DNA of 64,000 nucleotides from Thermoanaerobaculia bacterium (lineage in GTDB: Bacteria > Acidobacteriota > Thermoanaerobaculia > Multivoradales > UBA5704): assembly GCA_044868005.1 (NCBI GenBank), contig JBIOVX010000237.1:3852-67851 (forward strand), read 5' to 3'. A program made the translations under genes and the position numbers. This document shows, piece after piece, positions 3,341-19,000 of the stretch; position 1 is the first letter of the stretch, and each line of letters opens with the position of its first letter. Below the pieces are notes generated by a model that saw nothing but the letters and a program-made list of their open reading frames with translations, had not been told where the DNA came from and made no database searches.

Positions 3341-4204
3341 ATGCTATACGCCGCTTCGATCTTCCTCTCTCTGCGGACCGCCTCGGCTCCGAAGCCCTCA
3401 CCTCCCCTACCCCTCCTCTCCCAGAGGGAGAGGAGGGAGAAAAAAAGAATCTGCCGATTTCCGTCTTTTTTCCCCTCTCTCCCTGTGGGAGAGAGGGGCC
3501 AGGGGAGTGAGGGCTTCGCAGGGCAAACCGTTCTGATCGCCCTCTTCCTCCTCCTCCCCCTCTCCGCCCACGCCGAGGAGATCCGGGGCCGGGTTCAGCT
3601 CCTCGCCCGCGGCGGCCAGGGGCCGGCGCGGGGAAGCGACGTGCGTCAGGCGGTGGTGTACTTCGAGCCCGCGGGCGCGCCGCCGGTGCGGCCGGCCGAG
3701 ACCGCGTTCGAGATGGTCACCCGGCGCAAGACCTTCGAGCCGCGGCTGCTGGTCATCCCGCGCGGCAGCCGGGTGCGTTTTCCGAACGCCGATCCCATCC
3801 TGCACAACGCTTTTTCGGTCTCCTCGCCCAACCAGTTCGACCTCGGCCTCGGCCGGCAGGGGCCGGGCAAGGAGAAGCGCTTCGAGGAGCCGGGCCTGGT
3901 GCGCGTCTTCTGTAACGTGCATCACGACATGGTCGCCTACATCCTGGTGCTGAACACGCCGTATCACGTCTCGCCGGAGGCGAGCGGCGAGTTCGTTCTC
4001 AAGGGGTTGCCGCGCGGGCCGGGGAAGCTGACCGTGTGGCACGAGCAGGCGGACCCTTGGATCGCCGACGTCACGCTGCCGCAGAAGGTGCCGGGACCGC
4101 TCCTGGCCCGCGTCGAGATCGTTCGGCCGCTGATCCCGAGCCATCTCAACAAACTCGGACAGTCCTACTTCCGCTCCCAACGTGACCGCTACAACAACCG
4201 CTGA
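3341..4204 (+). CDS. Periplasmic cupredoxin-fold protein (MauL-like)
   Basis: ORF 3341..4204. The mature part (FEPRLLVIPRGSRVRFPNADPILHNAFS, VRVFCNVHHDMVAYILV) resembles the 'methylamine utilisation MauL-like' plastocyanin-fold proteins. The first ~48 codons are read through the palindromic repeat. The real start is therefore more likely the in-frame GTG at 3485, just before the signal peptide VLIALFLLLPLSAHA. Confidence 0.6.
   Translation: MLYAASIFLSLRTASAPKPSPPLPLLSQRERREKKRICRFPSFFPSLPVGERGQGSEGFAGQTVLIALFLLLPLSAHAEEIRGRVQLLARGGQGPARGSDVRQAVVYFEPAGAPPVRPAETAFEMVTRRKTFEPRLLVIPRGSRVRFPNADPILHNAFSVSSPNQFDLGLGRQGPGKEKRFEEPGLVRVFCNVHHDMVAYILVLNTPYHVSPEASGEFVLKGLPRGPGKLTVWHEQADPWIADVTLPQKVPGPLLARVEIVRPLIPSHLNKLGQSYFRSQRDRYNNR
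3391..3517. repeat. Composite ~127-bp nested palindrome (two REP-like hairpins plus outer inverted arms)
   Basis: Outer arms are GAAGCCCTCACCTCCCCT (3391..3408) and AGGGGAGTGAGGGCTTC (3501..3517). Inner hairpins are CCCTCCTCTCCCagaGGGAGAGGAGGG (3411..3437) and CCCCTCTCTCCCtgtGGGAGAGAGGGG (3472..3498). The centre is AGAAAAAAAGA...TCTTTTTT. The left half and the reverse complement of the right half align along their whole length. Confidence 0.8.
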
Positions 4205-6800
4205 CCGCCGCCGGACCGGCCTGTCGCTGGAGACCCGGATCTTCCTGGTCACCTCGCTGCTCATCGCGCTCCTGGTGGGCAGCGCGGTCGCGGTCACCTA
4301 CGTGCTGCTGCGGCGCATCGCCCGCGAGGCCGCAGCCGACTCCCTGCGGAGCAGCGCCGCGGTGCAGTCCACCTACGAGAAGGAGCGGTACGACCGGTTG
4401 AAGCTGATCTCCGGCCTCTACGTGTCCGATCCGGCCCTCGTCGCGTACCTGGCGGAGGCCGTCGGCACGCGGGATGCGCCGTCGCTGCTCTCCGAGCTCT
4501 CCGACGCCCAGAAGAGGTTGGGCTTCGACTTCGCCATCCTGCTGGATCCCCAGGGCCGCGTGGCGGCGCGCACCGATCACCCCAATGCGGTCGGCGAGGA
4601 CCTCTCGCGGCGTCCTCTCGTCGCCAAGGCGCTGGCGGATTTCGAAGCGAGCGGCGTCTGGCGCGAGGGCAAGCGCCTGTACTATGCGGTCGCCGTGCCG
4701 GTCCAGCAGCAGTTCACCGTCTACGGCTTCCTCATGACCGGCTTCGCTATCACCGACGTCTCCGCGCTGGAGGTGAACCGGGTGAGCGGCGCCGACGTCG
4801 CTTTCGTCGGCGCCGGCGAGCAAGGGCCGGAGATCATGGCGACGACGCTGCCGGCGCAGACGGCCCGCAGCCTGATGGCGGCGCTCTCGGCGAACAGCCG
4901 CGGCATGGGCGACGCCATGCGCGCCGGCAGGGCGATGTCCCAAACGGAGCTCGAGCTCGGGGGGCAGCCCTGGCTCGCTCAGGAATCTCCGCTGCTCGAC
5001 GCGCAGAGCAAGCCGATGGGCGCGACGGTGACGCTGGCTTCGCTCGAGCGCGAGCTCGCCGCCTACCGGCAGATCCAGAACGTGCTGCTCGGCGCCGGCC
5101 TCGCCGCCGTGCTCATCGCGCCGTTCCTCGCCTATGCCTTCGCCCGCCGCGCCATGCGTCCGGTGCGCCGGTTGGTCACCGCCGCCGAGGCGGCGCGGCA
5201 GGGGAATTACGACCAGCAGATCGACTCCGACCGCACGGACGAGGTGGGCCGCCTCGCCCATTCCTTCCACGACCTGCTGGCCGACCTGCGCGAGAAGCGC
5301 GACATGGAGGAGTACGTCACCGAGCTGTCGCGCAACCTGCCGGAGCCCGTGCAGGCGCGCGCCGTGCTGGGGAACGCGCAGAGCCGCGAGGTGCTGCTGC
5401 TCGGCATCGAGCTGCGCCGATACGCCCGCGCCGGCGCCAACGGCGACGCCGGCGAGACGCTGGCGCGGCTGGCGTCCGATCTCGACCGCGTGACCTCGGC
5501 CGTGGCGCGCGGCCGGGGCCTGGTGGAGGGGGTTACGGGCCACCGCGTGCTGGCCCGGTTCGAGGGGGAGGGGAGGGGTTACCGCGCGCTGACGGTTGCC
5601 GCCGGAGTGCTGCAGGCGGAGGGCGGCGAGGCCGGCGGCGGCGACGAGCCGGTGGCGGCGATGGCGGCCGGCAAGGCGATCACCGGTCCGGTCACCTGGG
5701 GAGAGCGCGCCGAGCGGGCCGTCGTGGGCCTGCCCGTGCAGCAGCTCGAGAGCCTGCTGCGCGAGGCCACGCCGGGCGAGCTGCTGCTCTCGCGCGAGGT
5801 GCACGACGAGCTGAAGGACGCCTTCGAGCAGGCCGGCTACCGGCTGGCCCCGCGGCGCGGCATCGTCACGCCGCAGCCGCTCTTCGTCGTCAGCTCGGCC
5901 ATGGCGTCTCGCCTCACCAGCGAGCGCGGCGTCGGCGCCACGGTGGCGCCCGCGGAGCGCACGACGCTCTCCGGCATCGCGCCTGGCGCCCTGCTCGGCC
6001 AGCGCTTCGAGGTCCTCTCCGTCCTCGGCGCCGGCGGCATGGGGATCGTCTACAAGGCGCGGGACCGCGAGCTCGACGACCTGGTCGCCTTGAAGATGCT
6101 GAAGCGCGAGCTGTGGGGCGACACCAGCCAGCTCGACCGGCTGAAGAGCGAGCTCAAGCTGGCGCGCAAGATCACGCATCCCAACGTGCTGCGCACCTAC
6201 GACTTCGGCGACATCGACGGCGTCCCCTACATCTCCATGGAGTACGTGCGGGGAGTGACCCTGCGCTACATGCTCGACCAGACGCGCCGGCTCCCTTACT
6301 CGGCCGGCCTGCGCCTGGCGAAGCAGCTCTGCGCCGGCTTGGGCGCCGCTCACTCGGTGGGCGTGCTCCACCGCGACATCAAGCCGGAGAACCTCATCCT
6401 CGAGCCCACCGGCAACGCCAAGCTGATGGACTTCGGCATCGCGCGGCCCATCGACCGGCTCGCCCCGGGGCAGACCCAGGCCGGCTTCGTGGTGGGCACG
6501 CCGCAGTACCTGCCGCCGGAGATCCTGCAGGGGAAGGACGCCGATCCCCGCTCCGACCTCTACTCCTGCGGCATCGTGCTCTACGAGATCTTCACCGGCG
6601 TGCTGCCGTTCGAGGGACCCACGGCCATGGACGTCATGGTGAAGCACCTGCGGGAGGAGCCGCCGCCGCCGAGCGCGCGCTGGCCCGAGATCCCGCCGGC
6701 GCTGGAGAAGGCCATCCTGCGCTGTCTGGAGAAAGATCCCGAGCGGCGCTACCGCTCGGTGGCGGAGCTGTCGCACGAGCTGGAAGAATTGAGCGCCTGA
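4182..6800 (+). CDS. Transmembrane sensor Ser/Thr protein kinase with HAMP and degenerate cyclase-homology domain
   Basis: ORF 4182..6800. TM (aa ~20-44), ~250-aa extracytoplasmic region, TM (aa ~300-320) and a HAMP-like segment (RPVRRLVTAAEAARQGNYDQ...GRLAHSFHDLLADL). A degenerate class III cyclase-like domain follows (aa ~402-550). The C-terminus is a Hanks kinase (GAGGMGIVYKA, HRDIKPENLIL, DFGIARP, GTPQYLPPE). Confidence 0.85.
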   Translation: MTATTTADRRRTGLSLETRIFLVTSLLIALLVGSAVAVTYVLLRRIAREAAADSLRSSAAVQSTYEKERYDRLKLISGLYVSDPALVAYLAEAVGTRDAPSLLSELSDAQKRLGFDFAILLDPQGRVAARTDHPNAVGEDLSRRPLVAKALADFEASGVWREGKRLYYAVAVPVQQQFTVYGFLMTGFAITDVSALEVNRVSGADVAFVGAGEQGPEIMATTLPAQTARSLMAALSANSRGMGDAMRAGRAMSQTELELGGQPWLAQESPLLDAQSKPMGATVTLASLERELAAYRQIQNVLLGAGLAAVLIAPFLAYAFARRAMRPVRRLVTAAEAARQGNYDQQIDSDRTDEVGRLAHSFHDLLADLREKRDMEEYVTELSRNLPEPVQARAVLGNAQSREVLLLGIELRRYARAGANGDAGETLARLASDLDRVTSAVARGRGLVEGVTGHRVLARFEGEGRGYRALTVAAGVLQAEGGEAGGGDEPVAAMAAGKAITGPVTWGERAERAVVGLPVQQLESLLREATPGELLLSREVHDELKDAFEQAGYRLAPRRGIVTPQPLFVVSSAMASRLTSERGVGATVAPAERTTLSGIAPGALLGQRFEVLSVLGAGGMGIVYKARDRELDDLVALKMLKRELWGDTSQLDRLKSELKLARKITHPNVLRTYDFGDIDGVPYISMEYVRGVTLRYMLDQTRRLPYSAGLRLAKQLCAGLGAAHSVGVLHRDIKPENLILEPTGNAKLMDFGIARPIDRLAPGQTQAGFVVGTPQYLPPEILQGKDADPRSDLYSCGIVLYEIFTGVLPFEGPTAMDVMVKHLREEPPPPSARWPEIPPALEKAILRCLEKDPERRYRSVAELSHELEELSA

Positions 6801-6825
6801 CCGGACCTGACCCATAGGAGGCAGG

Positions 6826-7995
6826 ATGATCGCTTCCCAGGCTGAAGCCCCGGAGCCGTTCGAGCCCGACCGCAGGCTCGCCGAATACGAGATGCTGCTC
6901 GAGATCGGCGTCAAGCTCGCCGGCACTCTCGATCTCCAACGGGTGCTGCAACTGGCTCTCGAGCACGCCGAGCAGGTCTGCCGGGCCGAGACCAGCTCGA
7001 TCTGGGAGCTCGACGAAGAGCGGCGGGAGCTCTTCTTCCGCGTCGTGCGCGGACACGCGGCGGGAGCCATCCGCGGTCTGCGGGTGCCGGTGGGCGAGGG
7101 GATCGTCGGCAGCGTCGCCGAGTCCGGCGAGGCCGCGGCGGTCAACGACGTGACCGCCGATCCGCGCTGGCACGGCGATCCCAAGGGAGCTTTCCAGACG
7201 CGGGCGATCCTCGCCGTGCCCCTGCTCGCCCGCGGCGCCGTCATCGGCGTCGTGCAGCTCCTGAACCCGGTGGACCGCGACCACTTCACGGCGGGCGACG
7301 TCTGGCGCATGCGCCAGTTCGCCGCCATCCTCGCGCCGACGCTGCAGAACGCCCGCCTCTACGCGGCGCAGCGCCGGCAGTTCTTCAACATGGTGACGGC
7401 GCTGGCGGAGACGCTGGAGAAGCGCGATCCCTATACCGGCGGCCACGTCCGCCGCGTCGTCGGCTACTCGTTGCTGCTCGGCGCCGAGATGGGGCTCGGC
7501 CGCGAGGACCTGCGCGAGCTGCGCCTCGCCGCCACGCTGCACGACATCGGCAAGATCACGACGCCGGACCGCATCCTCGGCAAGCCCTCGCCCCTCGATC
7601 CCGACGAGGCGGAGATCATGCGCCGGCACGCGGCGGACGGCGCTTCCATCGCCAGCCACCTCGCCAACCCGTGGGTGCTGCACGGCGTGCGCAGCCATCA
7701 CGAAAGGGTGGACGGCAAGGGATATCCGGACGGTCTGAAGGACGCCGACATCCCGCTCGCGCCGCGCATCATCGCCGTGGCGGACACCTACGACGCCATC
7801 ACCACCAGCCGTCCCTACCGCGCCGGCCTGCCGCCGCAGCGCGCCGCCGCCGAGATCTTCGCCGGCGCCGGCAGCCAATTCTGCCCGCAGGTCGTGGCGG
7901 CCTTCCGCAAGCTGTTCGAGGACGGCCGGTTCCGGCTGGAGACTGCCGATGATCTGCTGTTGTCGGGCGAGGTGCAGGTGTTGGGGACGGCGTGA
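6826..7995 (+). CDS. GAF domain / HD-GYP phosphodiesterase
   Basis: ORF 6826..7995 with AGGAGG upstream. N-terminal GAF-like domain and C-terminal HD-GYP signature (ATLHDIGKI, HHERVDGKGYPDGL). Confidence 0.9.
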   Translation: MIASQAEAPEPFEPDRRLAEYEMLLEIGVKLAGTLDLQRVLQLALEHAEQVCRAETSSIWELDEERRELFFRVVRGHAAGAIRGLRVPVGEGIVGSVAESGEAAAVNDVTADPRWHGDPKGAFQTRAILAVPLLARGAVIGVVQLLNPVDRDHFTAGDVWRMRQFAAILAPTLQNARLYAAQRRQFFNMVTALAETLEKRDPYTGGHVRRVVGYSLLLGAEMGLGREDLRELRLAATLHDIGKITTPDRILGKPSPLDPDEAEIMRRHAADGASIASHLANPWVLHGVRSHHERVDGKGYPDGLKDADIPLAPRIIAVADTYDAITTSRPYRAGLPPQRAAAEIFAGAGSQFCPQVVAAFRKLFEDGRFRLETADDLLLSGEVQVLGTA

Positions 7996-8025: not shown

Positions 8026-8679
8026 TTAGCTATTGTCTCTTGATCGATCAAAAATATCCTCAGCGCTATTACTTGCCTTCAACGTCTTTTGCATACTCCT
8101 GCGGACGATGAAGGCTATGACAATTGGGATAACATAACTCCAGGCTAGAACGAAGTATGCAATCTCCAATTGGCCAGAAGCCCAGAGGAAAGTAGATAAG
8201 AGAGCGGTACCAGAGATCTGAAAGCCGTAAAAGAAAACACGGATCGTTCGAGTTAGCTTGATAGCCAAGTGCTCGCGATACCGAGCTTTCGGATCCTTCT
8301 GACGGAGATTGCTAGCAGTGAAATCTAGCAACGCAAGACTCACATCTTGGCCACCATCTGTATTGCCGTTTATGAAATCTGCGATTTCGATTCTTCTTGT
8401 GCGAAACCGTTGTGCCGCGCGGGCATACCAGGCGTCAAGATAAAGGAAGACAAGAGGTATCAGGCTGCTGGCGGATATGAGCCGTACATCACTCTCAGCC
8501 ACTTCACTGACTCCGAGGCCAACCCCGAGCGTAAGTGTCCACAGAGCCACGGAAAATTGCCTGAGGTGATATTGAACTCCTTCAAGGTGCACGATTCTTT
8601 GCTCAAGTAGCGGTAGCTCAAGCTTGATGATCTCTAGCTGTCTATCTGTGAGTTCTGAGAGATGGTCGCCCTTAGTCAT
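8026..8679 (-). CDS. Small four-helix membrane protein, unknown family (island gene 2, candidate effector)
   Basis: ORF 8026..8679 (-) in the lowest-GC part of the window. A ~40-aa N-terminal amphipathic helix (LSELTDRQLEIIKLELPLLEQRIVHLEG) is followed by hydrophobic helices at aa ~42-58, 67-86, 146-167 and 172-192. They are arranged 2+2 around a ~60-aa charged loop. No signal peptide and no catalytic motif. Confidence 0.75.
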   Translation of the reverse strand: MTKGDHLSELTDRQLEIIKLELPLLEQRIVHLEGVQYHLRQFSVALWTLTLGVGLGVSEVAESDVRLISASSLIPLVFLYLDAWYARAAQRFRTRRIEIADFINGNTDGGQDVSLALLDFTASNLRQKDPKARYREHLAIKLTRTIRVFFYGFQISGTALLSTFLWASGQLEIAYFVLAWSYVIPIVIAFIVRRSMQKTLKASNSAEDIFDRSRDNS

Positions 8680-8882: not shown

Positions 8883-11522
8883 TTATCGGGCGCCTTCCGG
8901 CTGGCGCTCAATATCGACCAGGATAGTGTCTAGATCGACGTGATCCGTCGGGCTTTGCCTAAAACGTAGCTCCCAGGTGGCATCATGCTCGCGTTCGTGC
9001 TTTAGGACATCGCGCAACTCCTCGGGAAGGTTTTCGGCGCGTACCTCTCCATAGCGGATGTTTCGAAACGCTCCCGCGAGCTGTCGAATTTTACGATTCG
9101 AAGTGTCATCCTTCAGGCAGAAGAAAGCCTTCAGGACCTGCGCTGAGACCTTCTTGACGTCAGGATGCTGAAGCTGCAATTGCAAGGCGCCCTGGTAGAC
9201 CATTGAGCGCCGCTGAGCATCACCGCCGCCCTCATTAAGGTGTACCGCGTCAAGACTCAGGCGGGATTTGAAGTCCGGTTCCTTGGAATCGAGTAGTTTC
9301 TGCATTTCCTCGGGAGTGCCGGTAGACCGCAATTCGGTCGTCCCGGCGAATAGCCAGATGCAAGGGTCAAGCTTGAAGAGGTGACCTCCCCGCAGATACG
9401 AGCCGTCCTCCAGCACCGTCAGAAAAAGGTCGTAGACCGGCAAGCCTTCGACATGGGAGTTAATCTCGTCAAAAAAGACGACATGAGTTCGGTTGCGCTC
9501 TTGAGCCTGCGCGCTGGCAAGAGCGTCGAACCAGGAATTAATATTTTGCCGGCTAACGAGTTGGGTAATGTTGAAAAAAAGATGAGGCATGCCAAGAGCT
9601 GCCGCGAGCTTCGACACCAGGAAGGACTTGCCCGACCCAGGGAGGGCGATCAGCATGGCGCTGAAGGAATTCGCGCTGGGCTGGTGAAGGTAATCCTTTA
9701 GCGCCGAGAGCAGACGTGCTATCTCGCGGCGCCGCGAGTCGATAACCTCGATGTACCCGTCTAACTCGTCCATGGCCCGCCACAGCTCAAGGCTATAGCG
9801 CCGCGAGCTTGCATCTCTGGCTATGATGCCAGTCGCCTGTCGCGACGTCTCCCAAAAGTCGCGCTCCTGGGTCCAGCTCAGCGGAAGTACCTGAATGCTG
9901 GGACGGGTTCGCGATGGGAGCACGGTCGCAGTGGCCGTCCTTCGGTAGCTCCCGAAGGAAGTGTCATAGGGGAACTCCCTGTTCTCAAGGCTTCCCGGCT
10001 CTTCACCGAAGGTCTTAAGCGTTTGAATGTTGCCCTGCACGACGTCATAGGCTGCCTTTAGGGCGATCTCGAGCATCTCGGTTCTCCCCGGAGCATCGCC
10101 AACGGCAGCGCCCTTGATCGCATCGCTAACCCCAGCATCCGAAAGGATGATCTGGGAGACAAGCGCGGAGAAGAACATGCTGGCCCGCCCTGAGAGTTCC
10201 TCGCTCACTTCGTCCAAGATGGTCTTGGGCTGGTAGTAGCCAGTCCGTTCCTCTCCATTACCTTCGACGGCGAGGAGGCTTAAACCCTTGGGCATGGCGA
10301 CGACTAGTCGGGGTTGTCTCTCAAGCCCGGGATACCGATCTGAATGTGCGTCCCCGAGGAAGTCTTCGAGTCGGTCCAAGCTTTCCGCGGTGGGCTGCTC
10401 CTCACCGACGAACCACTTGTATATAGGGTGGTCGCTATCTTGGGCGCCTGGAGCAATCCCCTCGCGCTCCATTTGGGCGATGGCCATGGGCGGGAGGAAG
10501 AGCAGGCGCAGCATCCCGTACATCTCTTTTTTTGCCAGTGTATCTAGATAGGTCGGATGGAACTGCTTGCTTGAGATGAACCACTGAGTCTCCCTGTTTA
10601 TGAGGCCCACTGTATGCAACGCTTCGAGCAGAGTAAGTGTGGTTGTGCCCTTGCCGAGATCCTTGACCACGACATAGCGGAAGGGTTTTTGGCTCCCAGT
10701 GGAGTCATTCGTCGCAGGAGGGGCATGGAGTAGGTCCTCGGCGACCGTCGTGAGCGACTCTCGGATGCTCGGGAAGTGCTCTAAGCCGCCTTCGTAATCG
10801 AGGCGTAGCTTCAAGGCCTCGACATCGCGTAGGAGATGCTGCTGCCAAGTAGCGAAGGCGAGCCGTTCCGGATCGAACGGGATCTCAGGGATCTGACGCA
10901 ATAGCTCTTCGAGCCTCGTTAATTCGTAGTCGCGCCCTCCCTGGACTGGTTGGTAACGAAGCTCGAAGTCCACCCGGCGGTCGAGGACCAGCCCGCCCGG
11001 CGTCTCAGCCTGCAGGTTGTAGAGTCGATAGACGCGTGTGGTACCAACCTCCTTCCAGGGGCTGCTGGCCGCTGCCTCGGAATAGGCAGGGGCCAGGTTC
11101 TTCAGATACAAGCCATCGAGCTGTTGATAGTGAATGTGTTGAGGCTTTACACGTCTAAGAGTGAAAGGGTTGATTCCGTCTAAGTAGCGCGGATGGAACA
11201 TTTTGTAGAGTTTGGGCTCGTCATCCTCGGACCAAATACCGATCCCAAGAATCGAGAATGGAGGTGCGTTGACTCGCTCCTGAGGTGGGATCCAGATCTC
11301 TCCTCCGGACTCAGTGGGCTCCCGGAAACGATTCATCCAATAGAGAAAGCGCGCCACCCGTCCGGCGCCGCAGAAGGTCATGACGCGAGAATTGACGTTA
11401 CCCAAGGCTCGCAGGTGTGCCTTGCCCTCCATCGTGCTGAAGCTTGATCTATGCTTGGCTAGCACCCAGTTCTCGTCCACGACCCAGTCGCCGAGCACGA
11501 GGATCTCAATCGGTTTGGACAT
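8883..11522 (-). CDS. PfkB/ribokinase-like domain fused to AAA+ ATPase, unknown family (island gene 1)
   Basis: ORF 8883..11570 (-). Start trimmed to ATG 11522 (MSKPIEILVLGDW) with AAGGAG 6 nt upstream. The N-terminal ~460 aa carry PfkB-like motifs (ILVLGDWVVDENW, FCGAGRVARFL, VVVKDLGKGTTTL). The AAA+ core has Walker A LPGSGKS (nt 9624..9644), Walker B VVFFDE (nt 9465..9482), LFAGTTE and DFKSRLS. Confidence 0.8.
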   Translation of the reverse strand: MSKPIEILVLGDWVVDENWVLAKHRSSFSTMEGKAHLRALGNVNSRVMTFCGAGRVARFLYWMNRFREPTESGGEIWIPPQERVNAPPFSILGIGIWSEDDEPKLYKMFHPRYLDGINPFTLRRVKPQHIHYQQLDGLYLKNLAPAYSEAAASSPWKEVGTTRVYRLYNLQAETPGGLVLDRRVDFELRYQPVQGGRDYELTRLEELLRQIPEIPFDPERLAFATWQQHLLRDVEALKLRLDYEGGLEHFPSIRESLTTVAEDLLHAPPATNDSTGSQKPFRYVVVKDLGKGTTTLTLLEALHTVGLINRETQWFISSKQFHPTYLDTLAKKEMYGMLRLLFLPPMAIAQMEREGIAPGAQDSDHPIYKWFVGEEQPTAESLDRLEDFLGDAHSDRYPGLERQPRLVVAMPKGLSLLAVEGNGEERTGYYQPKTILDEVSEELSGRASMFFSALVSQIILSDAGVSDAIKGAAVGDAPGRTEMLEIALKAAYDVVQGNIQTLKTFGEEPGSLENREFPYDTSFGSYRRTATATVLPSRTRPSIQVLPLSWTQERDFWETSRQATGIIARDASSRRYSLELWRAMDELDGYIEVIDSRRREIARLLSALKDYLHQPSANSFSAMLIALPGSGKSFLVSKLAAALGMPHLFFNITQLVSRQNINSWFDALASAQAQERNRTHVVFFDEINSHVEGLPVYDLFLTVLEDGSYLRGGHLFKLDPCIWLFAGTTELRSTGTPEEMQKLLDSKEPDFKSRLSLDAVHLNEGGGDAQRRSMVYQGALQLQLQHPDVKKVSAQVLKAFFCLKDDTSNRKIRQLAGAFRNIRYGEVRAENLPEELRDVLKHEREHDATWELRFRQSPTDHVDLDTILVDIERQPEGAR

Positions 11523-11639
11523 GATGGACTCCTTGGGAAAGGCGGATGTCGTGGCGGAGACTGCCACCATACGACTTAGAGTAGCCTCGGGTCACTTGTG
11601 CCACCCCTACCTTTCGACAATCTTTGAAATATCGACGAT

Positions 11640-11645
11640 ATTATA
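11640..11645 (-). promoter_or_regulatory. Possible -10 box (TATAAT) for island gene 1
   Basis: Reverse-strand TATAAT at 11645..11640, ~118 nt upstream of ATG 11522. AGACTG lies 17 nt further upstream as a weak -35. Pattern only. Confidence 0.25.
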
Positions 11646-11807
11646 GCGGAGATTGGAAGCCGCAGTCTGGGGCACAAACAGGGGAACCTGAGGTCCTCTC
11701 CCGTACTCGCGGCTCTGCCGAAACACCCGGCGAGTCCATGACTTGCTCCTGTACAGGATTGCCTACTGGCCTGCGCTGGTATCATCTCCCGAAGGACATG
11801 CCACCTC

Positions 11808-13412
11808 ATGCTGCGGTTGCGCTTCGTCGTCAATGGTGAGGATCGCGTCGTTTCGCTGACGGGCAGCGGCCGGGTCCGGCTCGGCCGCGGCAGCGACAAC
11901 GACGTGGTGCTCCCCGACTCCTCCGTCTCCCGCTATCACGCCGAGATCCTCCGCGAGCCCGACGGCTGGTCGGTCCACGACCTCAAGAGCACCAACGGCG
12001 TCCAGGTCAACGGCGTGCCGGTGGAGAAAGCGCCGCTGCGCCCCGGCGACCTGCTGGGCGTCGGCTCGTTCCAGGTCCGCGTCGATGCGGACGAGCCGGT
12101 CTCCGTGCGGCCGCCGAAGCCGGCGGCGCCGGAGAAGGAGGAGGGCTTCGGCAACGCCACGATCATCCGGCCGCTCTCCGCCTTCGCGGCGGACTACGGC
12201 CTCGCCGGCGAGGCGGCGCGGCCCTCTCCGGAGGCCGGGGACGAGGAGTACGTCCGCCGCATGTTCGGCTTCCTCACCCGCCTGGCGCGCATGCTCACCC
12301 TCGCCGAGTCGGTGGACGACGTGCTGTCGCGCGTGCTCGACATGGCCTTCGAGGCCTTCCCGGTGGACCGCGGCTTCATCCTGCTCTCGGACGACTCGGG
12401 CGAGCTGGTCTGCGAGCTGGCGCGCGTCAAGAGCCGCGTGCAGTTCCGCCCCGCCGGCGAGGTGCCGGTCTCCCGCACCATGCTGCAGGCGGTGATGCGC
12501 GAGCGCGTGGCGCTCGTCACCTTCGACGCCCAGGCGGACCAGCGCCTCTCCGGCGGCGAGTCCATCCGCATGCACAAGATCCGCTCGGCGATGTGCGCTC
12601 CGCTGTGGTCGGGCGAGCGCATCATGGGCGTCATCCAGGTGGATTCACCGTTCCAGGTGGGAGCGTTCGGCGAGCGCGATCTCGACGTGCTCACGACGCT
12701 CGCCAACTATGTCGCGGTGGCCGTCGAGCGCATCCGCTACGCGCGCACGGCCGAGCGCGAAAGACTGGCGCGCACGCGGCTCGAGCGCTACCACTCGCCG
12801 GGCGTCATCGAAGAGGTGATGCGCCGCGGCGACGAAGGCGTGCAGAGCCTGCAGAGCGCCGAGGCCACGGTGCTCTTCGCCGACCTCGTGGGCTTCACCG
12901 CCTTCGCCGAGAACGCGCCGCCCGAGAGCGTTGCCGAATCGCTCGACGCCTTCCTGGACCTCTCGGTGGAAGCCATCTTCCGCGCCGGCGGCACCCTCGA
13001 CAAGTTCATCGGCGACTGCGTCATGGCCTTCTTCGGCGCTCCCGTGGCGCAGCCGGACCACGCGCTGCGGGCCGTGCGCGCCGCGATCGAGATCCAGCAG
13101 GGGCTCGCCGCCTGGAACGCCCGCCGGACCGCCGAGGGCCTGCCCGGCTTCAAGGTCCGCATCGGCGTCAACAGCGGTCCGGTGGTGGTGGGGGACATCG
13201 GCAGCTCCCGCCGGGTGGACTACACCGTGCTCGGCAACACCGTCAACGTGGCGGCGCGCCTGGAAGCCCTCGTCGCCCAGCCGGACGACGTCGTGCTCGG
13301 TCCCGAGACCCACCGCCTGCTCAACGGCACGATTCAAACCGAGGCGCTCGGCGAGCTGCAACTGAAGGGACTGCAGCAGAGGATCCGGGCGTATAGGGTG
13401 GCGCGGACGTGA
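11808..13412 (+). CDS. FHA-GAF-adenylate/guanylate cyclase
   Basis: ORF 11808..13412. FHA (GRGSDNDVVLPDSSVSRYHAEI, STNGVQVNG), a central GAF and a class III cyclase domain (ATVLFADLVGFTAF, FIGDCVMAFFGAP, RIGVNSGPVVVGDIGS, YTVLGNTVNVAARLE). Confidence 0.9.
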   Translation: MLRLRFVVNGEDRVVSLTGSGRVRLGRGSDNDVVLPDSSVSRYHAEILREPDGWSVHDLKSTNGVQVNGVPVEKAPLRPGDLLGVGSFQVRVDADEPVSVRPPKPAAPEKEEGFGNATIIRPLSAFAADYGLAGEAARPSPEAGDEEYVRRMFGFLTRLARMLTLAESVDDVLSRVLDMAFEAFPVDRGFILLSDDSGELVCELARVKSRVQFRPAGEVPVSRTMLQAVMRERVALVTFDAQADQRLSGGESIRMHKIRSAMCAPLWSGERIMGVIQVDSPFQVGAFGERDLDVLTTLANYVAVAVERIRYARTAERERLARTRLERYHSPGVIEEVMRRGDEGVQSLQSAEATVLFADLVGFTAFAENAPPESVAESLDAFLDLSVEAIFRAGGTLDKFIGDCVMAFFGAPVAQPDHALRAVRAAIEIQQGLAAWNARRTAEGLPGFKVRIGVNSGPVVVGDIGSSRRVDYTVLGNTVNVAARLEALVAQPDDVVLGPETHRLLNGTIQTEALGELQLKGLQQRIRAYRVART

Positions 13413-16025: not shown

Positions 16026-19000
16026 TCAATGCTTGCTTGACCGGGCGAGCAGCGCGTAGATGACCGGAAGGTCGACCGGCTTGGTCAGGTGATGGTCGAA
16101 TCCTGCCTCCCGCGAGAGGCGCTGGTCCTCCTCCTGTCCATAGCCGGTCACGGCCACGAGCAGGGCCCTTGCGGTCCGGCGCCGTTGGCGCAGCCGGCTG
16201 GCGACCTGGTAACCATCCAACCCGGGCAAACCGATGTCGAGCAGGACGACCTCGGGATGGAACGAGCCGGCCTTTTCCAGCGCCGCCGGTCCATCGTGAG
16301 CGGTCTCTACCTCGTGCCCTTTCAAGCGCAGGAGGAGGGCGAGGCTCTCGGCCGAATCCACGTTGTCGTCCACCACCAGGACGCGGCGCGGCGGGGCCGC
16401 GGCAGGGGAGAGCACCGGGCCTACGACGATCCTGTCCCCTGCATGGCCGCGGCGCTCCGGTGCCGTGCTCGCAGGCGCCGAAACGGGCAGGCGCACGACG
16501 AGCTCGCTGCCGTGTCCCAGCCCCGCGCTATGGGCTTCGACGCTGCCGCCGTGCAGCTCGACGAGGCGCTGCACCACCGTCAGGCCGATCCCCAACCCTC
16601 CCCGCGCCCGATCGGAGGAGCGGTCCGCCTGCACGAACAGGTCAAAGACGCGCGGCAGCGTTTCCGGAGCGATGCCGATGCCGTCGTCGCGCACTCGCAC
16701 GACGACCTCGCCGGGGGGCTCGGGCCCGCCGGCCGCCAGCTCGGCCGTCACCCAGAGATGGCCGCCTCTGGGGGTGAACTTGGAGGCGTTGTTCAGGAGG
16801 TTGCCGAAGACCTGTTCCAGCCGGACGGGGTCCGCGTCGAGGTAGACCGGCTCGCGCGGCAGCGACATCGACAGCTCCTGGCCGCGGGCTTCGATGAGAT
16901 GCCGGGTCAGCTCCACCGCCTGCTCGAGGACGACCGCCAGCTCCAACCGCTCTCTGCGCAGGCTGATCTGGCCCCGGTTGATGCGGGACACCTCGAGCAG
17001 GTCTTCGATCAACCGCGTCATGTTCTGAATCTGCCGGGTCATCATCTTCCGCGCCTGCTCGACCGCGGCGCCGTCGGCCCCCTCGGCCTGCAGCACGTGC
17101 GCGGCATTGAGCAGGGGCGCCAAGGGGTTGCGCAGCTCGTGGGCCAGCAGGGCCAGGAACTCGTTCTTGCCGCGGTCGGCCGCGGCCAGCTCCTCGACAC
17201 GCTGGTGTAGAACCTTTTCCAGTTGCTTGAGCTTGTCCACGTCGACGAGCAGGATCACCACGCCCTCGATCTTGTCCTCCAGGGTCCGGTACGGCCGGAC
17301 GCGCAGCGAATACCAGCGCCCCTGGCTGTCCTGGACCTCGCGTTCCCGGGGGCTCGCCGTGGCGATCACCTCCGCCAGGAAGGGCTCCAGATCGGGAACG
17401 CTGAGCTTGAGCTTGATGTCGCCGATCGGCCGGCCGACGTCGGTCGGGATCAGGCTGAAGATCTCTCCCGCCATCGGCGTGAAGCGCCGCACGCGCAGGT
17501 CCTGCCCGAGCATGATGATGGCCATCTCGACGCTGCCGAGGAGGTTGATCAGATCGTTGCTGAGCTGATTCAGCTCCAGGTTGCGGTTCTGCAGCTCGTC
17601 GTTGACCGTGGCCAGCTCTTCGTTGCTCGACTGGATCTCCTCCTTGGAGGTTTCCAGCTCTTCGTTGATGCTCTGCAGCTCCTCGTTGGCCGACTGCACC
17701 TCCTCATTGGCCGACTGCAGCTCTTCATTGGCGGCCTCCTGCTGCTCGATCACCGATTGCAGGTATTCGCCCGTGGCGGCCAGCTCCCGCGCCAAACGGG
17801 CGTTCTCCCGTTCGGCGGCCTCCTCCTCCGCGGCAGCCTTGGTCCGTGGTTTTGCGGCCTTGCCCCTGTCCCTCTTCCCTCGCGGCAGAGAAGCCGGTGC
17901 TGGAACGGGCTCTTCGAACAGGACCAGGAAGCCGCCTTCCCCTGCCGAGCTTCCCTTGACGGGAACCACCTCCAGGTCGACCTCCCGGGTGACGCCGTCG
18001 GCCTCGACCCGCACCCCCTCCTCGCGCACCGGGACGTTGTCCTTCCTGGCCTTGTTGATCGCGGCCCGCAGGGTGACGAGCAACCCTTCCCGCGTCATCC
18101 TGAGCAGGTTCAGGCTGGCCTTGCCCGGCGCCGGCGCCAGATAGGGCCCGGTGTCGCCGCGGAACTGCAGGATCTCCAGCTCGGCGTTGACCAGCACGCC
18201 GGGCGGGGCGTATCTTGCCATGAGGATGCGGTCGGCCTCTGTCCGCACGTCGGATCCGGCTGGCTGCAGGCGGCCCGGGCCGTGGCCGGGCTCTGCTCGG
18301 CCCTGATAGCGGCCGGCAGGCTGGCCGAGGACCGTCCGGTGCGTGCCTGGCTTCTTGGCGTAGATCTTGTGCTTGGCGTCTGCGGCCTCGAACAGGGCGC
18401 GGTAGGAGCCGATCATCTCCGAGCTCCCCAGCAAGAGAAAGCCGGCCGGCTTCAAGGCATAGTGCAGGCGCTCCACGAGCCTCTGTTGCAGCGCCGGCTC
18501 CAGGTAGATGAGCAGGTTGCGGCAACTGATGAGGTCGATCTGGGAGAAGGGCGGGTCGGTCAGCACGTTGTGCCGGGCGAACACGCACATGTCGCGGATC
18601 GGCTTGCTGATGCGGTAGCTGCCGTCCACCTCCGCGAAGAACCGCCGCAGGCGCTCCGGCGAGACGTCGTGCGTGATGTTCTGCGAGTACACGCCCGCGC
18701 GGGCCTTGTCGATGCACTCTACGTTCAGGTCGGTGGCGAAGACCTGGACCGGGAGCTGGCTGCCCCTGGCCGCGGCGAGCTCGGCGATGGCGATGGAGTA
18801 AGCCTCCTCGCCGGTCGAGCACCCCGGCACCCAGACGCGCAGCGGCTCTTGTCCGGAGCGGTTCTTCAACAGCTTGGGCAAGACCTTCGCCTTGAGTGCT
18901 TCGAAGGTCTCCGGGTTGCGGAAAAACCTCGTCACCCTGATGAGGGTGTCCTGGTAGAGGGCCTCCACCTCTCCGGGGTTTTTCCGTAGGAAGCGCGCGT

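What the first reader, a model, noticed from the sequence alone, without database searches (positions are those of the whole stretch)
10131..11522. N-terminal domain of the island ATPase resembles a catalytically dead HldE/RfaE-type PfkB sugar kinase
ORF numbering from 11570, aa 17 to ~480. Three stretches parallel PfkB sugar kinases such as HldE domain I, as I recall it.
- ILVLGDWVVDENW...(about 30 aa)...TFCGAGRVARFL parallels the HldE N-terminus VMVVGDVMLDRYWYG...ERPGGAANVAMNI.
- TTRVYRLYNL...LDRRVDFE parallels the lid strand TKLRVLSRNQQLIRLDFEE.
- VVVKDLGKGTTTL parallels the hhVThGxxG strand.
PfkB kinases carry the catalytic TGAGD anion-hole/base motif. At the best-aligned position this protein reads ELSGRASMFF (nt 10179..10193 encode SGRAS), so the Asp is absent. 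A kinase fold kept as a sugar- or nucleotide-binding sensor rather than an enzyme would suit a sensing role upstream of the AAA+ motor. This rests on motif-level similarity recalled from memory.
Basis: inference. Interest (0 to 1): 0.65.

Follow-up and report, generated by a model that had tools for sequence, protein, structure and literature searches.

The report
Dead sugar-kinase domain on AAA+ ATPase
The front half of this horizontally acquired ATPase is a sugar-kinase (PfkB/HldE-like) fold that keeps its sugar-side pocket and lid but has lost every residue needed to transfer phosphate, so it most likely acts as a ligand-binding switch for the ATP-driven motor behind it, and it defines an unannotated family of several hundred proteins.

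Summary
The ORF 8883..11570(-) really starts at M17 (11522) and gives an 879-aa protein. It contains every quoted motif at the stated coordinates. Sequence libraries see only a C-terminal AAA+ domain.

An AlphaFold model of aa 1-590 has the PfkB topology: a 9-strand core plus a 4-strand lid. In the PDB its top ~42 Foldseek hits are all ribokinase-superfamily kinases (E down to 4e-5; RbsK TM 0.56-0.58). A viral structure library gave nothing.

Against an HldE profile, three separate segments each find their best match in colinear order and beat all shuffles. They are β1 GDW..D..W, the lid R-V-D-F-E, and β8 VVKDLGKG = HldE LVLSDYAKG. The ATP/catalytic half has no signal.

Across 128 family members the GAGD Asp is Ser/Thr and never Asp. 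NXXE and the Thr loop are also lost, while D28, D32, GAG, lid Arg/Asp/Glu and K303-D304 are near-invariant.

The family has about 460 clusters at 50% identity. All that were examined share the same N-domain + MoxR-like AAA+ architecture, with no conserved neighbour and no effector domain. The sensor role is inferred, not shown.

The parts
8883..11522 (-). CDS of the 879-aa protein. The true start is M17 of the 895-codon ORF 8883..11570.
   Evidence: ORF list and translation. An AAGGAG sequence lies 6 nt upstream of the ATG at 11522. The identical database protein P0001 is 879 aa.
10011..11516 (-). PfkB/ribokinase-fold pseudokinase domain (aa 19-520). It has a nine-strand alpha/beta core plus a four-strand lid.
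   Evidence: AF2 models. Foldseek against PDB: all ~42 top hits are ribokinase-superfamily kinases, with RbsK 1rk2/1rka at TMt 0.56-0.58. Foldseek against the viral library found nothing.
11466..11510 (-). Strand beta1 and the start of the lid, IEILVLGDWVVDENW (aa 21-35). G27, D28, W29, D32 and W35 are near-invariant. D32 is equivalent to the sugar-binding Asp (RbsK D16).
   Evidence: hhalign to HldE 11-32, z 7.4. Conservation.
11349..11375 (-). Gly-rich motif FCGAGRVAR (aa 66-74). It is equivalent to HldE PGGAANVAM and RbsK GGKGANQA.
   Evidence: hhalign alignment. In 128 members G68 is found in 109, A69 in 124 and G70 in 121. It sits at the N-terminus of helix 69-77 in the model.
10959..11042 (-). 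Lid beta-hairpin TTRVYRLYNL...LDRRVDFEL (aa 177-204). T177 and D201 are invariant; R182 and R199 are near-invariant; R179 and E203 are conserved in about 85% of members.
   Evidence: Strands 178-186 and 194-203 in the model. LDRRVDFE aligns to HldE QLIRLDFE 115-122, z 3.0. Conservation.
10683..10958 (-). Three-helix insertion (aa 205-296) in place of PfkB helix alpha3. It is specific to the window's subclade.
   Evidence: Helices 217-225, 234-259 and 267-282. The insertion is absent from P0009-P0012.
10647..10676 (-). Strand beta8 and following loop YVVVKDLGKG (aa 299-308). It is equivalent to HldE LVLSDYAKG, and D304 sits at the position of RbsK E143 (sugar-binding).
   Evidence: hhalign to HldE 143-159, z 3.2. 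In 128 members K303 is found in 105, D304 in 119, K307 in 108 and G308 in 121.
10473..10508 (-). Degenerate NXXE region, RLLFLPPMAIAQ (aa 355-366). The Asn position is P361 (Q/P/E in the family) and the Glu position is I364 (Ala in the family).
   Evidence: Strand 353-359 followed by helix 361-370. Extended hhalign alignment. Column counts.
10272..10304 (-). True equivalent of the hhVThGxxG ATP-loop strand, VVAMPKGLSLL (aa 423-433). The Thr is replaced by Met/Leu.
   Evidence: Strands 421-425 and 432-438. Extended hhalign alignment. Column counts.
10179..10190 (-). G-R-A-S (aa 461-464) at the N-cap of helix 462-478. It replaces the GAGD anion-hole/catalytic-base motif, with the Asp changed to Ser.
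   Evidence: Model helix start. hhalign register. In the family, position 464 is S113 T10 G3 E1 A1 and position 463 is A102.
9771..10010 (-). Linker / pre-AAA+ region (aa 521-600), containing W573 and G581 (near-invariant in 128 members) and W566 (conserved in the 12 close homologues).
   Evidence: Alignments A1 and A4. Low-to-moderate pLDDT.
9051..9770 (-). AAA+ ATPase module (aa 601-840). Walker A is PGSGKS 644-649 (nt 9624..9641). Walker B is VVFFDE 697-702 (nt 9465..9482). Putative sensor-1 is T744, putative Arg finger R770 and putative sensor-2 R826.
   Evidence: Pfam AAA PF00004, E 1.2e-6. G647, K648, D701 and R770 are invariant; E702, T744 and R826 are near-invariant. Foldseek hits to ClpA/B/X, RuvB, Vps4 and a sigma54 activator. 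Relatives hit AAA_5, AAA_3 and bpMoxR.
8026..8679 (-). 217-aa hydrophobic protein gene in the same low-GC island, 204 nt downstream. It may have been co-acquired, but it is not a conserved partner.
   Evidence: GC 0.46-0.52. Weak PADLOC PDC-M50A hit, 8e-5. No homologue sits next to family members in 16 other loci.

Best explanation
The gene encodes a two-module protein. The N-terminal ~500 aa are a PfkB/ribokinase-fold domain descended from, or closest to, HldE/RfaE-type heptose-phosphate kinases.

This domain keeps the substrate-side half of the fold:
- beta1 G-D-W..D;
- the Gly-rich CGAG motif;
- a four-strand lid carrying conserved T177, R179, R182, R199, D201 and E203;
- beta8 K303-D304..K307-G308.

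It has lost all three phosphoryl-transfer elements:
- NXXE;
- the Thr/Gly ATP loop;
- the GAGD catalytic Asp, which is Ser here.

It is therefore a pseudokinase. It is fused through a ~80-aa linker to a MoxR-like AAA+ ATPase with intact Walker A/B, Arg finger and sensor residues.

The most likely mechanism is inferred, not shown. The pseudokinase pocket plus lid would bind a small, probably phosphorylated sugar or nucleotide-sugar ligand. Lid closure, or lid-mediated dimerisation as in ribokinases, would be transmitted to the AAA+ module. That would gate its oligomerisation or ATPase/remodelling activity.

The gene sits in a two-gene low-GC island. It belongs to a sporadically distributed, horizontally mobile family of about 460 clusters. 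The family has no conserved partner gene, so the protein acts as a self-contained sensor-motor unit.

Confidence by step:
- ribokinase fold, about 0.85;
- no canonical kinase activity, about 0.8;
- HldE-like origin, about 0.6;
- ligand-gated control of the AAA+ module, about 0.4.
For: Fold.
- AF2 model, pTM 0.80, reproduced in the full-length run. It has 9 core strands and 4 lid strands in the PfkB order described in PMC12621476.
- Foldseek against PDB: ranks 1-42 are all ribokinase-superfamily kinases, E 4e-5 to 4e-2, with RbsK TMt 0.56-0.58.
- Negative control: the viral library gives nothing.

HldE-like sequence signal.
- Only HldE scores above noise among 9 E. coli paralogues.
- Against the HldE profile, E is 0.0014 and z is about 7.5.
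- Three colinear segment matches each beat all 40 shuffles.

Loss of catalysis.
- Column counts in 128 members.
- No PfkB Pfam hit in any member tested.
- The C-terminal segments give no HldE signal.

Retained pocket and lid: near-invariant D28, D32, A69, G70, T177, R182, R199, D201, D304, G308 and K335.

Intact AAA+.

Family size and constant architecture: 460 clusters, mostly 700-850 aa; no extra domains.

Mobility.
- Island GC 0.46-0.62 against about 0.70 in the flanks.
- Transposases or an integrase next to relatives.
- Relatives occur in several phyla.

No conserved neighbour.
Against: - No standard profile method reaches significance for the whole domain. Pfam, NCBIfam and PDB HMM searches were negative. 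hhalign against an E. coli PfkB paralogue profile gave E 0.05-0.08. An HMM built from PfkB paralogues does not separate the family from shuffles.
- The fold call therefore rests on a model built from only 10-12 sequences (mean pLDDT 69-72).
- I could not superpose coordinates. The register at NXXE and GAGD is inferred from secondary structure and a low-confidence alignment extension.
- The large number of invariant polar residues could indicate catalysis of another kind rather than mere binding.
- No ligand, no phenotype and no partner are known.
- The conserved lid could serve protein-protein contacts instead of ligand binding.
Confidence: 0.6

Rival explanations
1. The N-domain is still an enzyme, but with non-canonical chemistry. 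It could be a phosphotransferase, a hydrolase or a nucleotide-sugar-modifying enzyme. It would use the conserved Ser464, K303/D304, His40/His52 and the lid arginines. The AAA+ module would deliver or remodel its macromolecular substrate.
For: An unusually large set of polar residues is conserved in at least ~75% of members: D28, D32, H40, R41, S42, H52, R54, D117, T177, R179, R182, R199, D201, E203, K303, D304, K307, K335 and S464. The position of the catalytic base is itself conserved as Ser/Thr in 123 of 128 members rather than drifting.
Against: The whole ATP-binding and Mg/phosphate-handling apparatus of the superfamily (NXXE, Thr loop, GAGD Asp) is missing. The ATP-side half of the domain is the least conserved part and has no HldE signal. 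To my knowledge the Asp is near-universal among ribokinase-superfamily enzymes.
Confidence: 0.15
2. The pseudokinase domain binds no small molecule. It would be a scaffold that dimerises through the lid (the beta-clasp of ribokinases). Alternatively it recognises protein clients, like the N-domains of Cdc48 or ClpA, for a constitutively active remodelling ATPase.
For: In PfkB kinases the four-strand lid is the dimer interface (PMC12621476). The most conserved residues of the family lie on the lid strands. AAA+ unfoldases commonly carry N-terminal adaptor domains (established knowledge).
Against: Pocket residues that are not on the lid are also retained, which is hard to explain by an interface alone: D32, the G68-A69-G70 helix N-cap and D304 at the RbsK E143 position. 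The charged Arg/Asp/Glu pattern is shared with HldE, whose substrate is a sugar phosphate.
Confidence: 0.2
3. The PfkB resemblance is spurious. On this reading the region is a generic Rossmann-like domain, the AF2 model or Foldseek hits are artefacts of a shallow alignment, and the motif matches are chance.
For: No significant Pfam or PDB sequence hit. Whole-domain hhalign is not significant. The model's mean pLDDT is only 69-72.
Against: All 42 top hits belong to one superfamily and none to other Rossmann folds. The 9+4 strand topology, including the lid, is specific. Two model runs agree. Three independent sequence segments match HldE colinearly above all shuffles, with an N-terminal z of 7.4.
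Confidence: 0.05

Closest known systems
HldE/RfaE domain I and HldA (D-glycero-beta-D-manno-heptose-7-phosphate kinase; PfkB family)
   Same: It is the best-scoring PfkB paralogue. Shared features, in colinear order:
- beta1-beta2 'VVGD..D..W';
- the Gly-rich motif, 'GGAANVA' in HldE versus 'CGAGRVA' here;
- the lid motif 'R-[LV]-D-F-E';
- 'SDYAKG' in HldE versus 'KDLGKG' here.
   Different: - There is no GAGD motif; GRAS replaces it.
- There is no NXXE motif and no Thr/Gly ATP loop.
- There is no adenylyltransferase domain II.
- It is fused instead to an AAA+ ATPase.
- It carries 6- to 90-residue insertions.
- It is not recognised by Pfam PF00294.
E. coli ribokinase RbsK (PDB 1RK2, 1RKA) and other lid-bearing PfkB kinases (M. 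jannaschii nucleoside kinase 2C49, Mtb ribokinase 3GO6)
   Same: These give the highest structural similarity (TMt 0.54-0.58). They share the nine-strand core, the four-strand lid and the same order of secondary-structure elements.
   Different: Sequence identity is 7-10%. The catalytic residues are absent. The lid residues that are hydrophobic in RbsK are Arg/Asp/Glu here.
Plant FLN1/FLN2 fructokinase-like proteins (PfkB-family pseudokinases of the plastid RNA polymerase complex); cited from my own knowledge, not checked here
   Same: They are a precedent for a PfkB-fold protein that has lost kinase activity and serves a non-catalytic role.
   Different: They are eukaryotic and plastid-located, are not fused to an ATPase, are still recognised by the PfkB profile, and work in a different functional context.
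Ligand-gated AAA+ ATPases: bacterial enhancer-binding proteins (NtrC/XylR/DmpR class) and red-type Rubisco activase CbbX (activated by ribulose bisphosphate); cited from established knowledge
   Same: They follow the same logic: a regulatory, ligand-binding element controls the assembly or ATPase activity of an AAA+ module. The AAA+ module here has the 'LL..LE.G.y.R.G' pre-sensor-1 hairpin region typical of the NtrC/MoxR superclade. Foldseek hits the sigma54 activator 1ojl.
   Different: - There is no GAFTGA loop and no HTH DNA-binding domain.
- The sensor domain has a different fold.
- The target of the motor is unknown.
MoxR-type AAA+ ATPases (Pfam AAA_3, AAA_5, bpMoxR)
   Same: Relatives hit AAA_5, AAA_3 and bpMoxR. 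The best PDB sequence hits are midasin AAA modules, with 'FNITQ...D' after strand beta2.
   Different: No VWA-domain partner gene is present. The scores are below or near the Pfam cut-offs, so the AAA+ clade assignment remains approximate.

Membership tests
PfkB / ribokinase family (Pfam PF00294) | Rossmann-like alpha/beta core with a nine-strand sheet, plus a four-strand beta lid formed by beta2-beta3 and beta6-beta7 | tested here: met
   AF2 secondary structure gives core strands 21-27, 105-111, 154-158, 299-304, 329-334, 353-359, 421-425, 432-438 and 441-447. The lid strands are 29-38, 64-68, 179-186 and 194-202. The family definition is from PMC12621476. This test is based on a model, not an experimental structure.
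PfkB / ribokinase family (Pfam PF00294) | N-terminal Gly-rich (GG) signature at the N-cap of helix alpha1 | tested here: inconclusive
   C67-G68-A69-G70 lies at the start of helix 69-77. G68 is found in 109, A69 in 124 and G70 in 121 of 128 members. The first Gly is Cys, and the sugar-binding Asn is Arg/Gln.
PfkB / ribokinase family (Pfam PF00294) | C-terminal signature DTxGAGD, with the anion hole and the catalytic Asp | tested here: not met
   The equivalent is E-L-S-G-R-A-S. Position 464 is S113/T10/G3/E1/A1 in 128 members and is never Asp. No other GxGD motif occurs in the domain.
PfkB / ribokinase family (Pfam PF00294) | NXXE motif (Mg2+/phosphate coordination) after strand beta10 | tested here: not met
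   Here the positions are P361..I364. In the family they are Q56/P28/E21 and A77/V12/I11. The register comes from the model and the extended hhalign alignment.
PfkB / ribokinase family (Pfam PF00294) | Significant match to the family profile | tested here: not met
   There is no PF00294 hit at E<=10 for the window protein, for 10 N-domains or for 10 further relatives. hhalign against an E. coli paralogue profile gave E 0.05-0.08.
HldE/RfaE-like subfamily of PfkB | Subfamily-specific motifs VVGD..D..W, R-L-D-F-E and S-D-Y-x-K-G in colinear order | tested here: met
   Segment-wise hhalign against an enterobacterial HldE profile gave z 7.4, 3.0 and 3.2. Each exceeded 40 of 40 shuffles, at HldE 11-32, 115-122 and 143-159. 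HldE was the only paralogue above noise. The HldE profile was shallow (sequences 84-100% identical).
HldE/RfaE-like subfamily of PfkB | Heptose-7-phosphate kinase activity, or genomic linkage to LPS-heptose genes (gmhA, gmhB, hldD) | tested here: not met
   No heptose-pathway genes were seen among the neighbours scanned in the window and in 16 relatives' loci. Enzyme activity is not testable with these tools.
AAA+ ATPases | Walker A GxxGxGK[ST] and Walker B hhhhDE | tested here: met
   PGSGKS is at 644-649 and VVFFDE at 697-702. G647, K648 and D701 are invariant in 128 members. Pfam AAA scored E 1.2e-6, above its cut-off.
AAA+ ATPases | Sensor-1, arginine finger, sensor-2 and the alpha-helical lid subdomain | tested here: inconclusive
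   T744 (118 of 128), R770 (128 of 128) and R826 (122) are conserved at the expected places. The model has a helical C-terminal subdomain, and Foldseek matches ClpX, RuvB, Vps4 and NtrC-type modules. The residue roles are assigned by analogy only.
Known anti-phage defence systems (PADLOC-DB v2) | Significant match to a defence-protein model and/or a conserved system partner | tested here: not met
   The only hits are weak P-loop-level matches (RmrA 2.7e-3, IetA 0.03). There is no conserved neighbour. Some relatives lie near SIR2-NACHT, Roc-COR-TIR, PIN_8 and PDC-S01 genes, but this is anecdotal.

The most novel reading that the evidence does not exclude
The family may be a self-contained, horizontally mobile sensor-motor of a conflict or stress-response type. 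A pseudokinase derived from the LPS-heptose kinase HldE would detect a heptose phosphate or nucleotide-sugar metabolite, such as heptose-1,7-bisphosphate or ADP-heptose, or a phage-induced analogue. Detection would switch on a MoxR-like AAA+ remodelling ATPase. This would be a bacterial counterpart of ALPK1-type sensing of heptose metabolites, built from the biosynthetic enzyme's own fold.
Probability: 0.1. Interest if true: 0.8.

Novelty: new variant of a known kind. Interest (0 to 1): 0.55.

Why it matters
It gives a fold and a testable hypothesis to the unannotated ~500-residue N-terminal region of a family of about 460 protein clusters. Databases currently label these only 'AAA ATPase' or 'hypothetical protein'.

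As far as I could find, a ribokinase-fold pseudokinase fused to an AAA+ motor has not been described. If the pocket binds a sugar phosphate or nucleotide sugar, the family would be a new class of metabolite-gated AAA+ machines. It would also be a bacterial example of a metabolic enzyme fold recycled as a sensor.

The conserved pocket and lid residues (D32, R179, R182, R199, D201, K303, D304, S464) give direct targets for mutagenesis.

Tried and rejected
- Pfam, NCBIfam and PADLOC scans of the protein found only the AAA+ domain.
- Pfam scans of 10 N-domains and of 10 further relatives found no PfkB hit.
- phmmer and profile hmmsearch of the N-domain against PDB sequences found no kinase hit.
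- hhalign of the family against single RbsK or HldE sequences and against a profile of 9 E. coli PfkB paralogues gave E 0.03-0.5, which is not significant on its own.
- An HMM of the E. coli paralogues run against 128 N-domains and shuffles gave no separation.
- The search for homologous proteins with alignment A1 returned the same 12 proteins, so that search was wasted.
- The HldE search returned only enterobacterial sequences 84-100% identical, so the HldE profile is shallow.
- The search for related loci with the 128-sequence alignment failed because no conserved stretch was available.
- A search for a conserved partner gene found none. All-against-all BLASTP of 135 neighbours from 17 loci gave no cross-locus hits, and the neighbours' Pfam and PADLOC profiles were heterogeneous.
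- The idea that the 217-aa membrane protein is a CyanoTRADDas_TM-type partner was rejected. BLASTP was not significant and there was no Pfam hit.
- A mobile-element origin for the island could not be shown. There is no tRNA gene, no convincing flanking repeats and no integrase in the window.
- No family member was found on viral contigs or on plasmids.
- Literature searches for a ribokinase/PfkB-AAA+ fusion or pseudokinase found nothing relevant.


Full report
**What is there**

The finding lies in ORF 8883..11570 on the minus strand (895 codons).

The real start is almost certainly M17. It is an ATG at 11522 with AAGGAG 6 nt upstream, and the identical database protein P0001 has 879 aa.

The gene and a downstream 217-aa hydrophobic-protein gene (8026..8679, minus strand) form a low-GC island. 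Its GC is 0.46-0.62, against about 0.70 in the flanks. The island is inserted between a GAF-HD gene and an FHA-GAF-cyclase gene. No tRNA gene or convincing flanking repeats mark its borders.

**What standard annotation sees**

Pfam, NCBIfam and PADLOC detect only an AAA+ module, from about aa 600 to 840.
- Pfam AAA scores E 1.2e-6 at aa 639-707.
- Walker A is PGSGKS at 644-649.
- Walker B is VVFFDE at 697-702.

The first 590 residues match no Pfam family and no PDB sequence, whether searched as a single sequence or as a profile of 10 homologues.

**Fold**

An AlphaFold2 model of aa 1-590 was built from the 10-sequence alignment A2. It has mean pLDDT 69 and pTM 0.80. It predicts two sets of strands:
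- nine core strands: 21-27, 105-111, 154-158, 299-304, 329-334, 353-359, 421-425, 432-438 and 441-447;
- four lid strands: 29-38, 64-68, 179-186 and 194-202.

The order is exactly the PfkB arrangement of a Rossmann-like nine-strand core plus a four-strand beta2/beta3/beta6/beta7 lid, as described for ribokinase in PMC12621476. A second, full-length model gave the same elements.

Foldseek against the PDB returned only ribokinase-superfamily kinases in ranks 1-42. These were pyridoxal kinase, myo-inositol kinase, E. coli ribokinase, adenosine kinase, guanosine kinase and M. jannaschii nucleoside kinase. E-values ran from 4e-5. TM-scores normalised to the target were 0.54-0.58 for the lid-bearing ribokinases. 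As a negative control, the same model gave no significant hit in the viral structure library.

A three-helix insertion (aa 205-296) replaces helix alpha3. It is confined to the window's subclade.

I fetched the real E. coli HldE and eight other E. coli PfkB paralogues.

The exhaustive representative search with the N-domain profile found 460 clusters at E<=1e-3, of which 388 were at E<=1e-10. Most are 700-850 aa long. I aligned 128 full-length members.

Whole-domain hhalign against the nine-paralogue profile is not significant (E 0.05-0.08). Its extended alignment is colinear over 290 columns and reproduces the motif map given below. The real score of 21.2 exceeds all 60 column shuffles, which averaged 13.7 with SD 2.0.

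Among the nine paralogues only HldE scores above noise: 26.6 against 12-18 for the others. Against a profile of enterobacterial HldE sequences the score is 32.8. The pairwise E-value is 0.0014, and 80 shuffles gave 14.9 +/- 2.4 with a maximum of 20.9.

Taken segment by segment, three segments match and two do not.
- aa 21-42 aligns to HldE 11-32 (z 7.4).
- LDRRVDFE aligns to HldE QLIRLDFE 115-122 (z 3.0).
- PFRYVVVKDLGKGTTTL aligns to HldE SIGALVLSDYAKGALAS 143-159 (z 3.2).
- The beta10 segment gives no signal.
- The beta11-to-helix segment, which is the ATP/catalytic half, gives no signal.

Each of the three matching segments beat all 40 shuffles.

The hhVThGxxG equivalent is VVAMPKGLSLL (aa 423-433).

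**Catalytic status**

I combined the model's secondary structure with the hhalign register, then read off residues in 128 members.
- GAGD anion-hole/base motif. This sits at the N-cap of the long helix 462-478 and reads G461-R462-A463-S464. Position 464 is Ser in 113 members, Thr in 10, Gly in 3, Glu in 1 and Ala in 1. It is never Asp.
- NXXE positions, after strand 353-359. These are P361 and I364 here. In the family they are Q/P/E and mostly Ala.
- Thr of the ATP loop. This is Met or Leu.

No other GxGD motif exists in the domain.

By contrast, the substrate side of the fold is conserved in most or all members:
- G27, D28, W29 and D32 (D32 corresponds to RbsK D16);
- the G68-A69-G70 helix cap;
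- lid residues T177, R179, R182, R199, D201 and E203;
- K303 and D304 (D304 corresponds to RbsK E143), K307 and G308;
- W330, S333 and K335.

The domain is thus best described as a PfkB-fold, HldE-like pseudokinase. It keeps its sugar-side pocket and lid and has lost the phosphoryl-transfer machinery. The register in the C-terminal half is inferred, because I could not superpose coordinates.

**The rest of the protein and the family**

The AAA+ module has invariant G647, K648, D701 and R770 and near-invariant E702, T744 and R826. It also has a predicted beta-hairpin before sensor-1 (strands 724-733).

Relatives hit Pfam AAA, AAA_5, AAA_3 and bpMoxR. PDB sequence hits are led by midasin and Cdc48-type modules. 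Foldseek hits include ClpA/B/X, RuvB, Vps4 and a sigma54 activator. I call the module MoxR-like, but the clade assignment is approximate.

No member examined carries an additional effector domain.

In the window plus 16 other loci the neighbours share no homologue. They range from transposases and an integrase to PIN_8, PDC-S01, SIR2-NACHT and Roc-COR-TIR genes, and to plain housekeeping genes.

Relatives occur in Acidobacteriota, Gammaproteobacteria, Desulfobacteraceae, Syntrophomonas and Ignavibacteriaceae. None was found on viral contigs or plasmids. No source gives the proteins an informative name.

**Mechanism**

Shown:
- the two-module architecture;
- an intact ATPase motif set;
- a degenerate kinase motif set;
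- a conserved pocket and lid;
- mobility and the lack of a fixed partner.

Inferred:
- The pseudokinase binds a small ligand, probably phosphorylated and sugar-like. The pocket Asp residues and the Gly-rich cap are kept. The lid carries the same Arg/Asp/Glu pattern as HldE, whose substrate is a heptose phosphate.
- Lid closure or lid-mediated dimerisation gates assembly or activity of the AAA+ module. This resembles the way N-terminal regulatory domains gate bacterial enhancer-binding proteins, or ribulose bisphosphate activates CbbX (established knowledge).

I put the confidence for each step as follows:
- the fold, about 0.85;
- loss of canonical kinase activity, about 0.8;
- the HldE-like origin, about 0.6;
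- the ligand-gating mechanism, about 0.4.

Three rivals remain:
- a non-canonical enzyme (0.15), suggested by the many invariant polar residues and the conserved Ser at the base position;
- a purely protein-binding or dimerising scaffold (0.2);
- a spurious fold call (0.05).

**Comparison and novelty**

The domain works like, and is structurally homologous to, PfkB kinases. It fails three defining sequence features of the family: the DTxGAGD signature, the NXXE motif and a match to the PF00294 profile. I therefore do not file it as a PfkB kinase. I file it as a new, degenerate branch of the ribokinase-like superfamily in a new architecture.

Catalytically inactive PfkB proteins are known in plants (FLN1/FLN2; my own knowledge). 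I found no report of a ribokinase-fold domain fused to an AAA+ ATPase.

I rate the novelty as a new variant of a known kind and the interest as moderate (0.55). The family is sizeable and unannotated and the hypothesis is directly testable, but no function, ligand or phenotype is yet known.

Noticed in passing
window 8026..8679 (-): A 217-aa hydrophobic protein gene lies 204 nt downstream of the ATPase, in the lowest-GC part of the island (0.46-0.52). It has no Pfam family and only a weak PADLOC PDC-M50A match (8e-5). It may have been co-acquired, but no homologue lies next to family members elsewhere.
   Followed up: partly
L004 413..982, L005 1522..2091, L006 877..1446: Loci of the distant relative P0009 carry a 189-aa PF20712 (CyanoTRADDas_TM) membrane protein about 550 nt upstream on the same strand. 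BLASTP against the window's membrane protein is not significant (E 3.2).
   Followed up: partly
window 10683..10958 (-), aa 205-296: A three-helix insertion of about 90 residues replaces helix alpha3 of the kinase fold. It is present only in the window's subclade (P0002-P0008) and absent from P0009-P0012 and most of the family. Its role is unknown.
   Followed up: no
window 11408..11453 (-), aa 40-54: The lid loop between beta2 and beta3 carries a strongly conserved basic/hydroxyl pattern (H40 R41 S42 .. R/M47 . G49 .. H52 . R54). It is predicted with very low confidence (pLDDT below 50). It could be a flexible phosphate-binding or interface loop.
   Followed up: no
window 6826..7995 (+), 11808..13412 (+), 16026..19820 (-): The island is embedded among multidomain signalling genes: GAF-HD phosphohydrolase, FHA-GAF-adenylate/guanylate cyclase, and a CheB-CheR-PAS-histidine kinase-receiver hybrid of 1264 aa.
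   Followed up: no
window 4146..7328 (-) and 4182..6800 (+): Two very long ORFs (1060 aa and 872 aa) overlap on opposite strands in a 70-73% GC stretch. The minus-strand ORF has no Pfam hit; the plus-strand ORF was not scanned. Which of them, if either, is a real gene was not resolved.
   Followed up: no
L003 1..1357 and 3684..6875: The closest relative with context (P0002, 66% identical) lies between a SIR2-NACHT-HEAT gene and an LRR-Roc-COR-TIR gene. These are domain types typical of conflict or immunity islands.
   Followed up: no
L029 5821..7777 and 10633..12768; L020 4905..6101 and 10200..11396: Relatives in a Desulfobacterium and an Acidobacteriota genome are flanked by mobile and defence-type genes: an IS91 transposase plus a tyrosine integrase, a 711-aa P-loop/SMC-like protein, a DDE transposase, and a PDC-S01 (AAA_14-DUF4143) gene.
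   Followed up: partly
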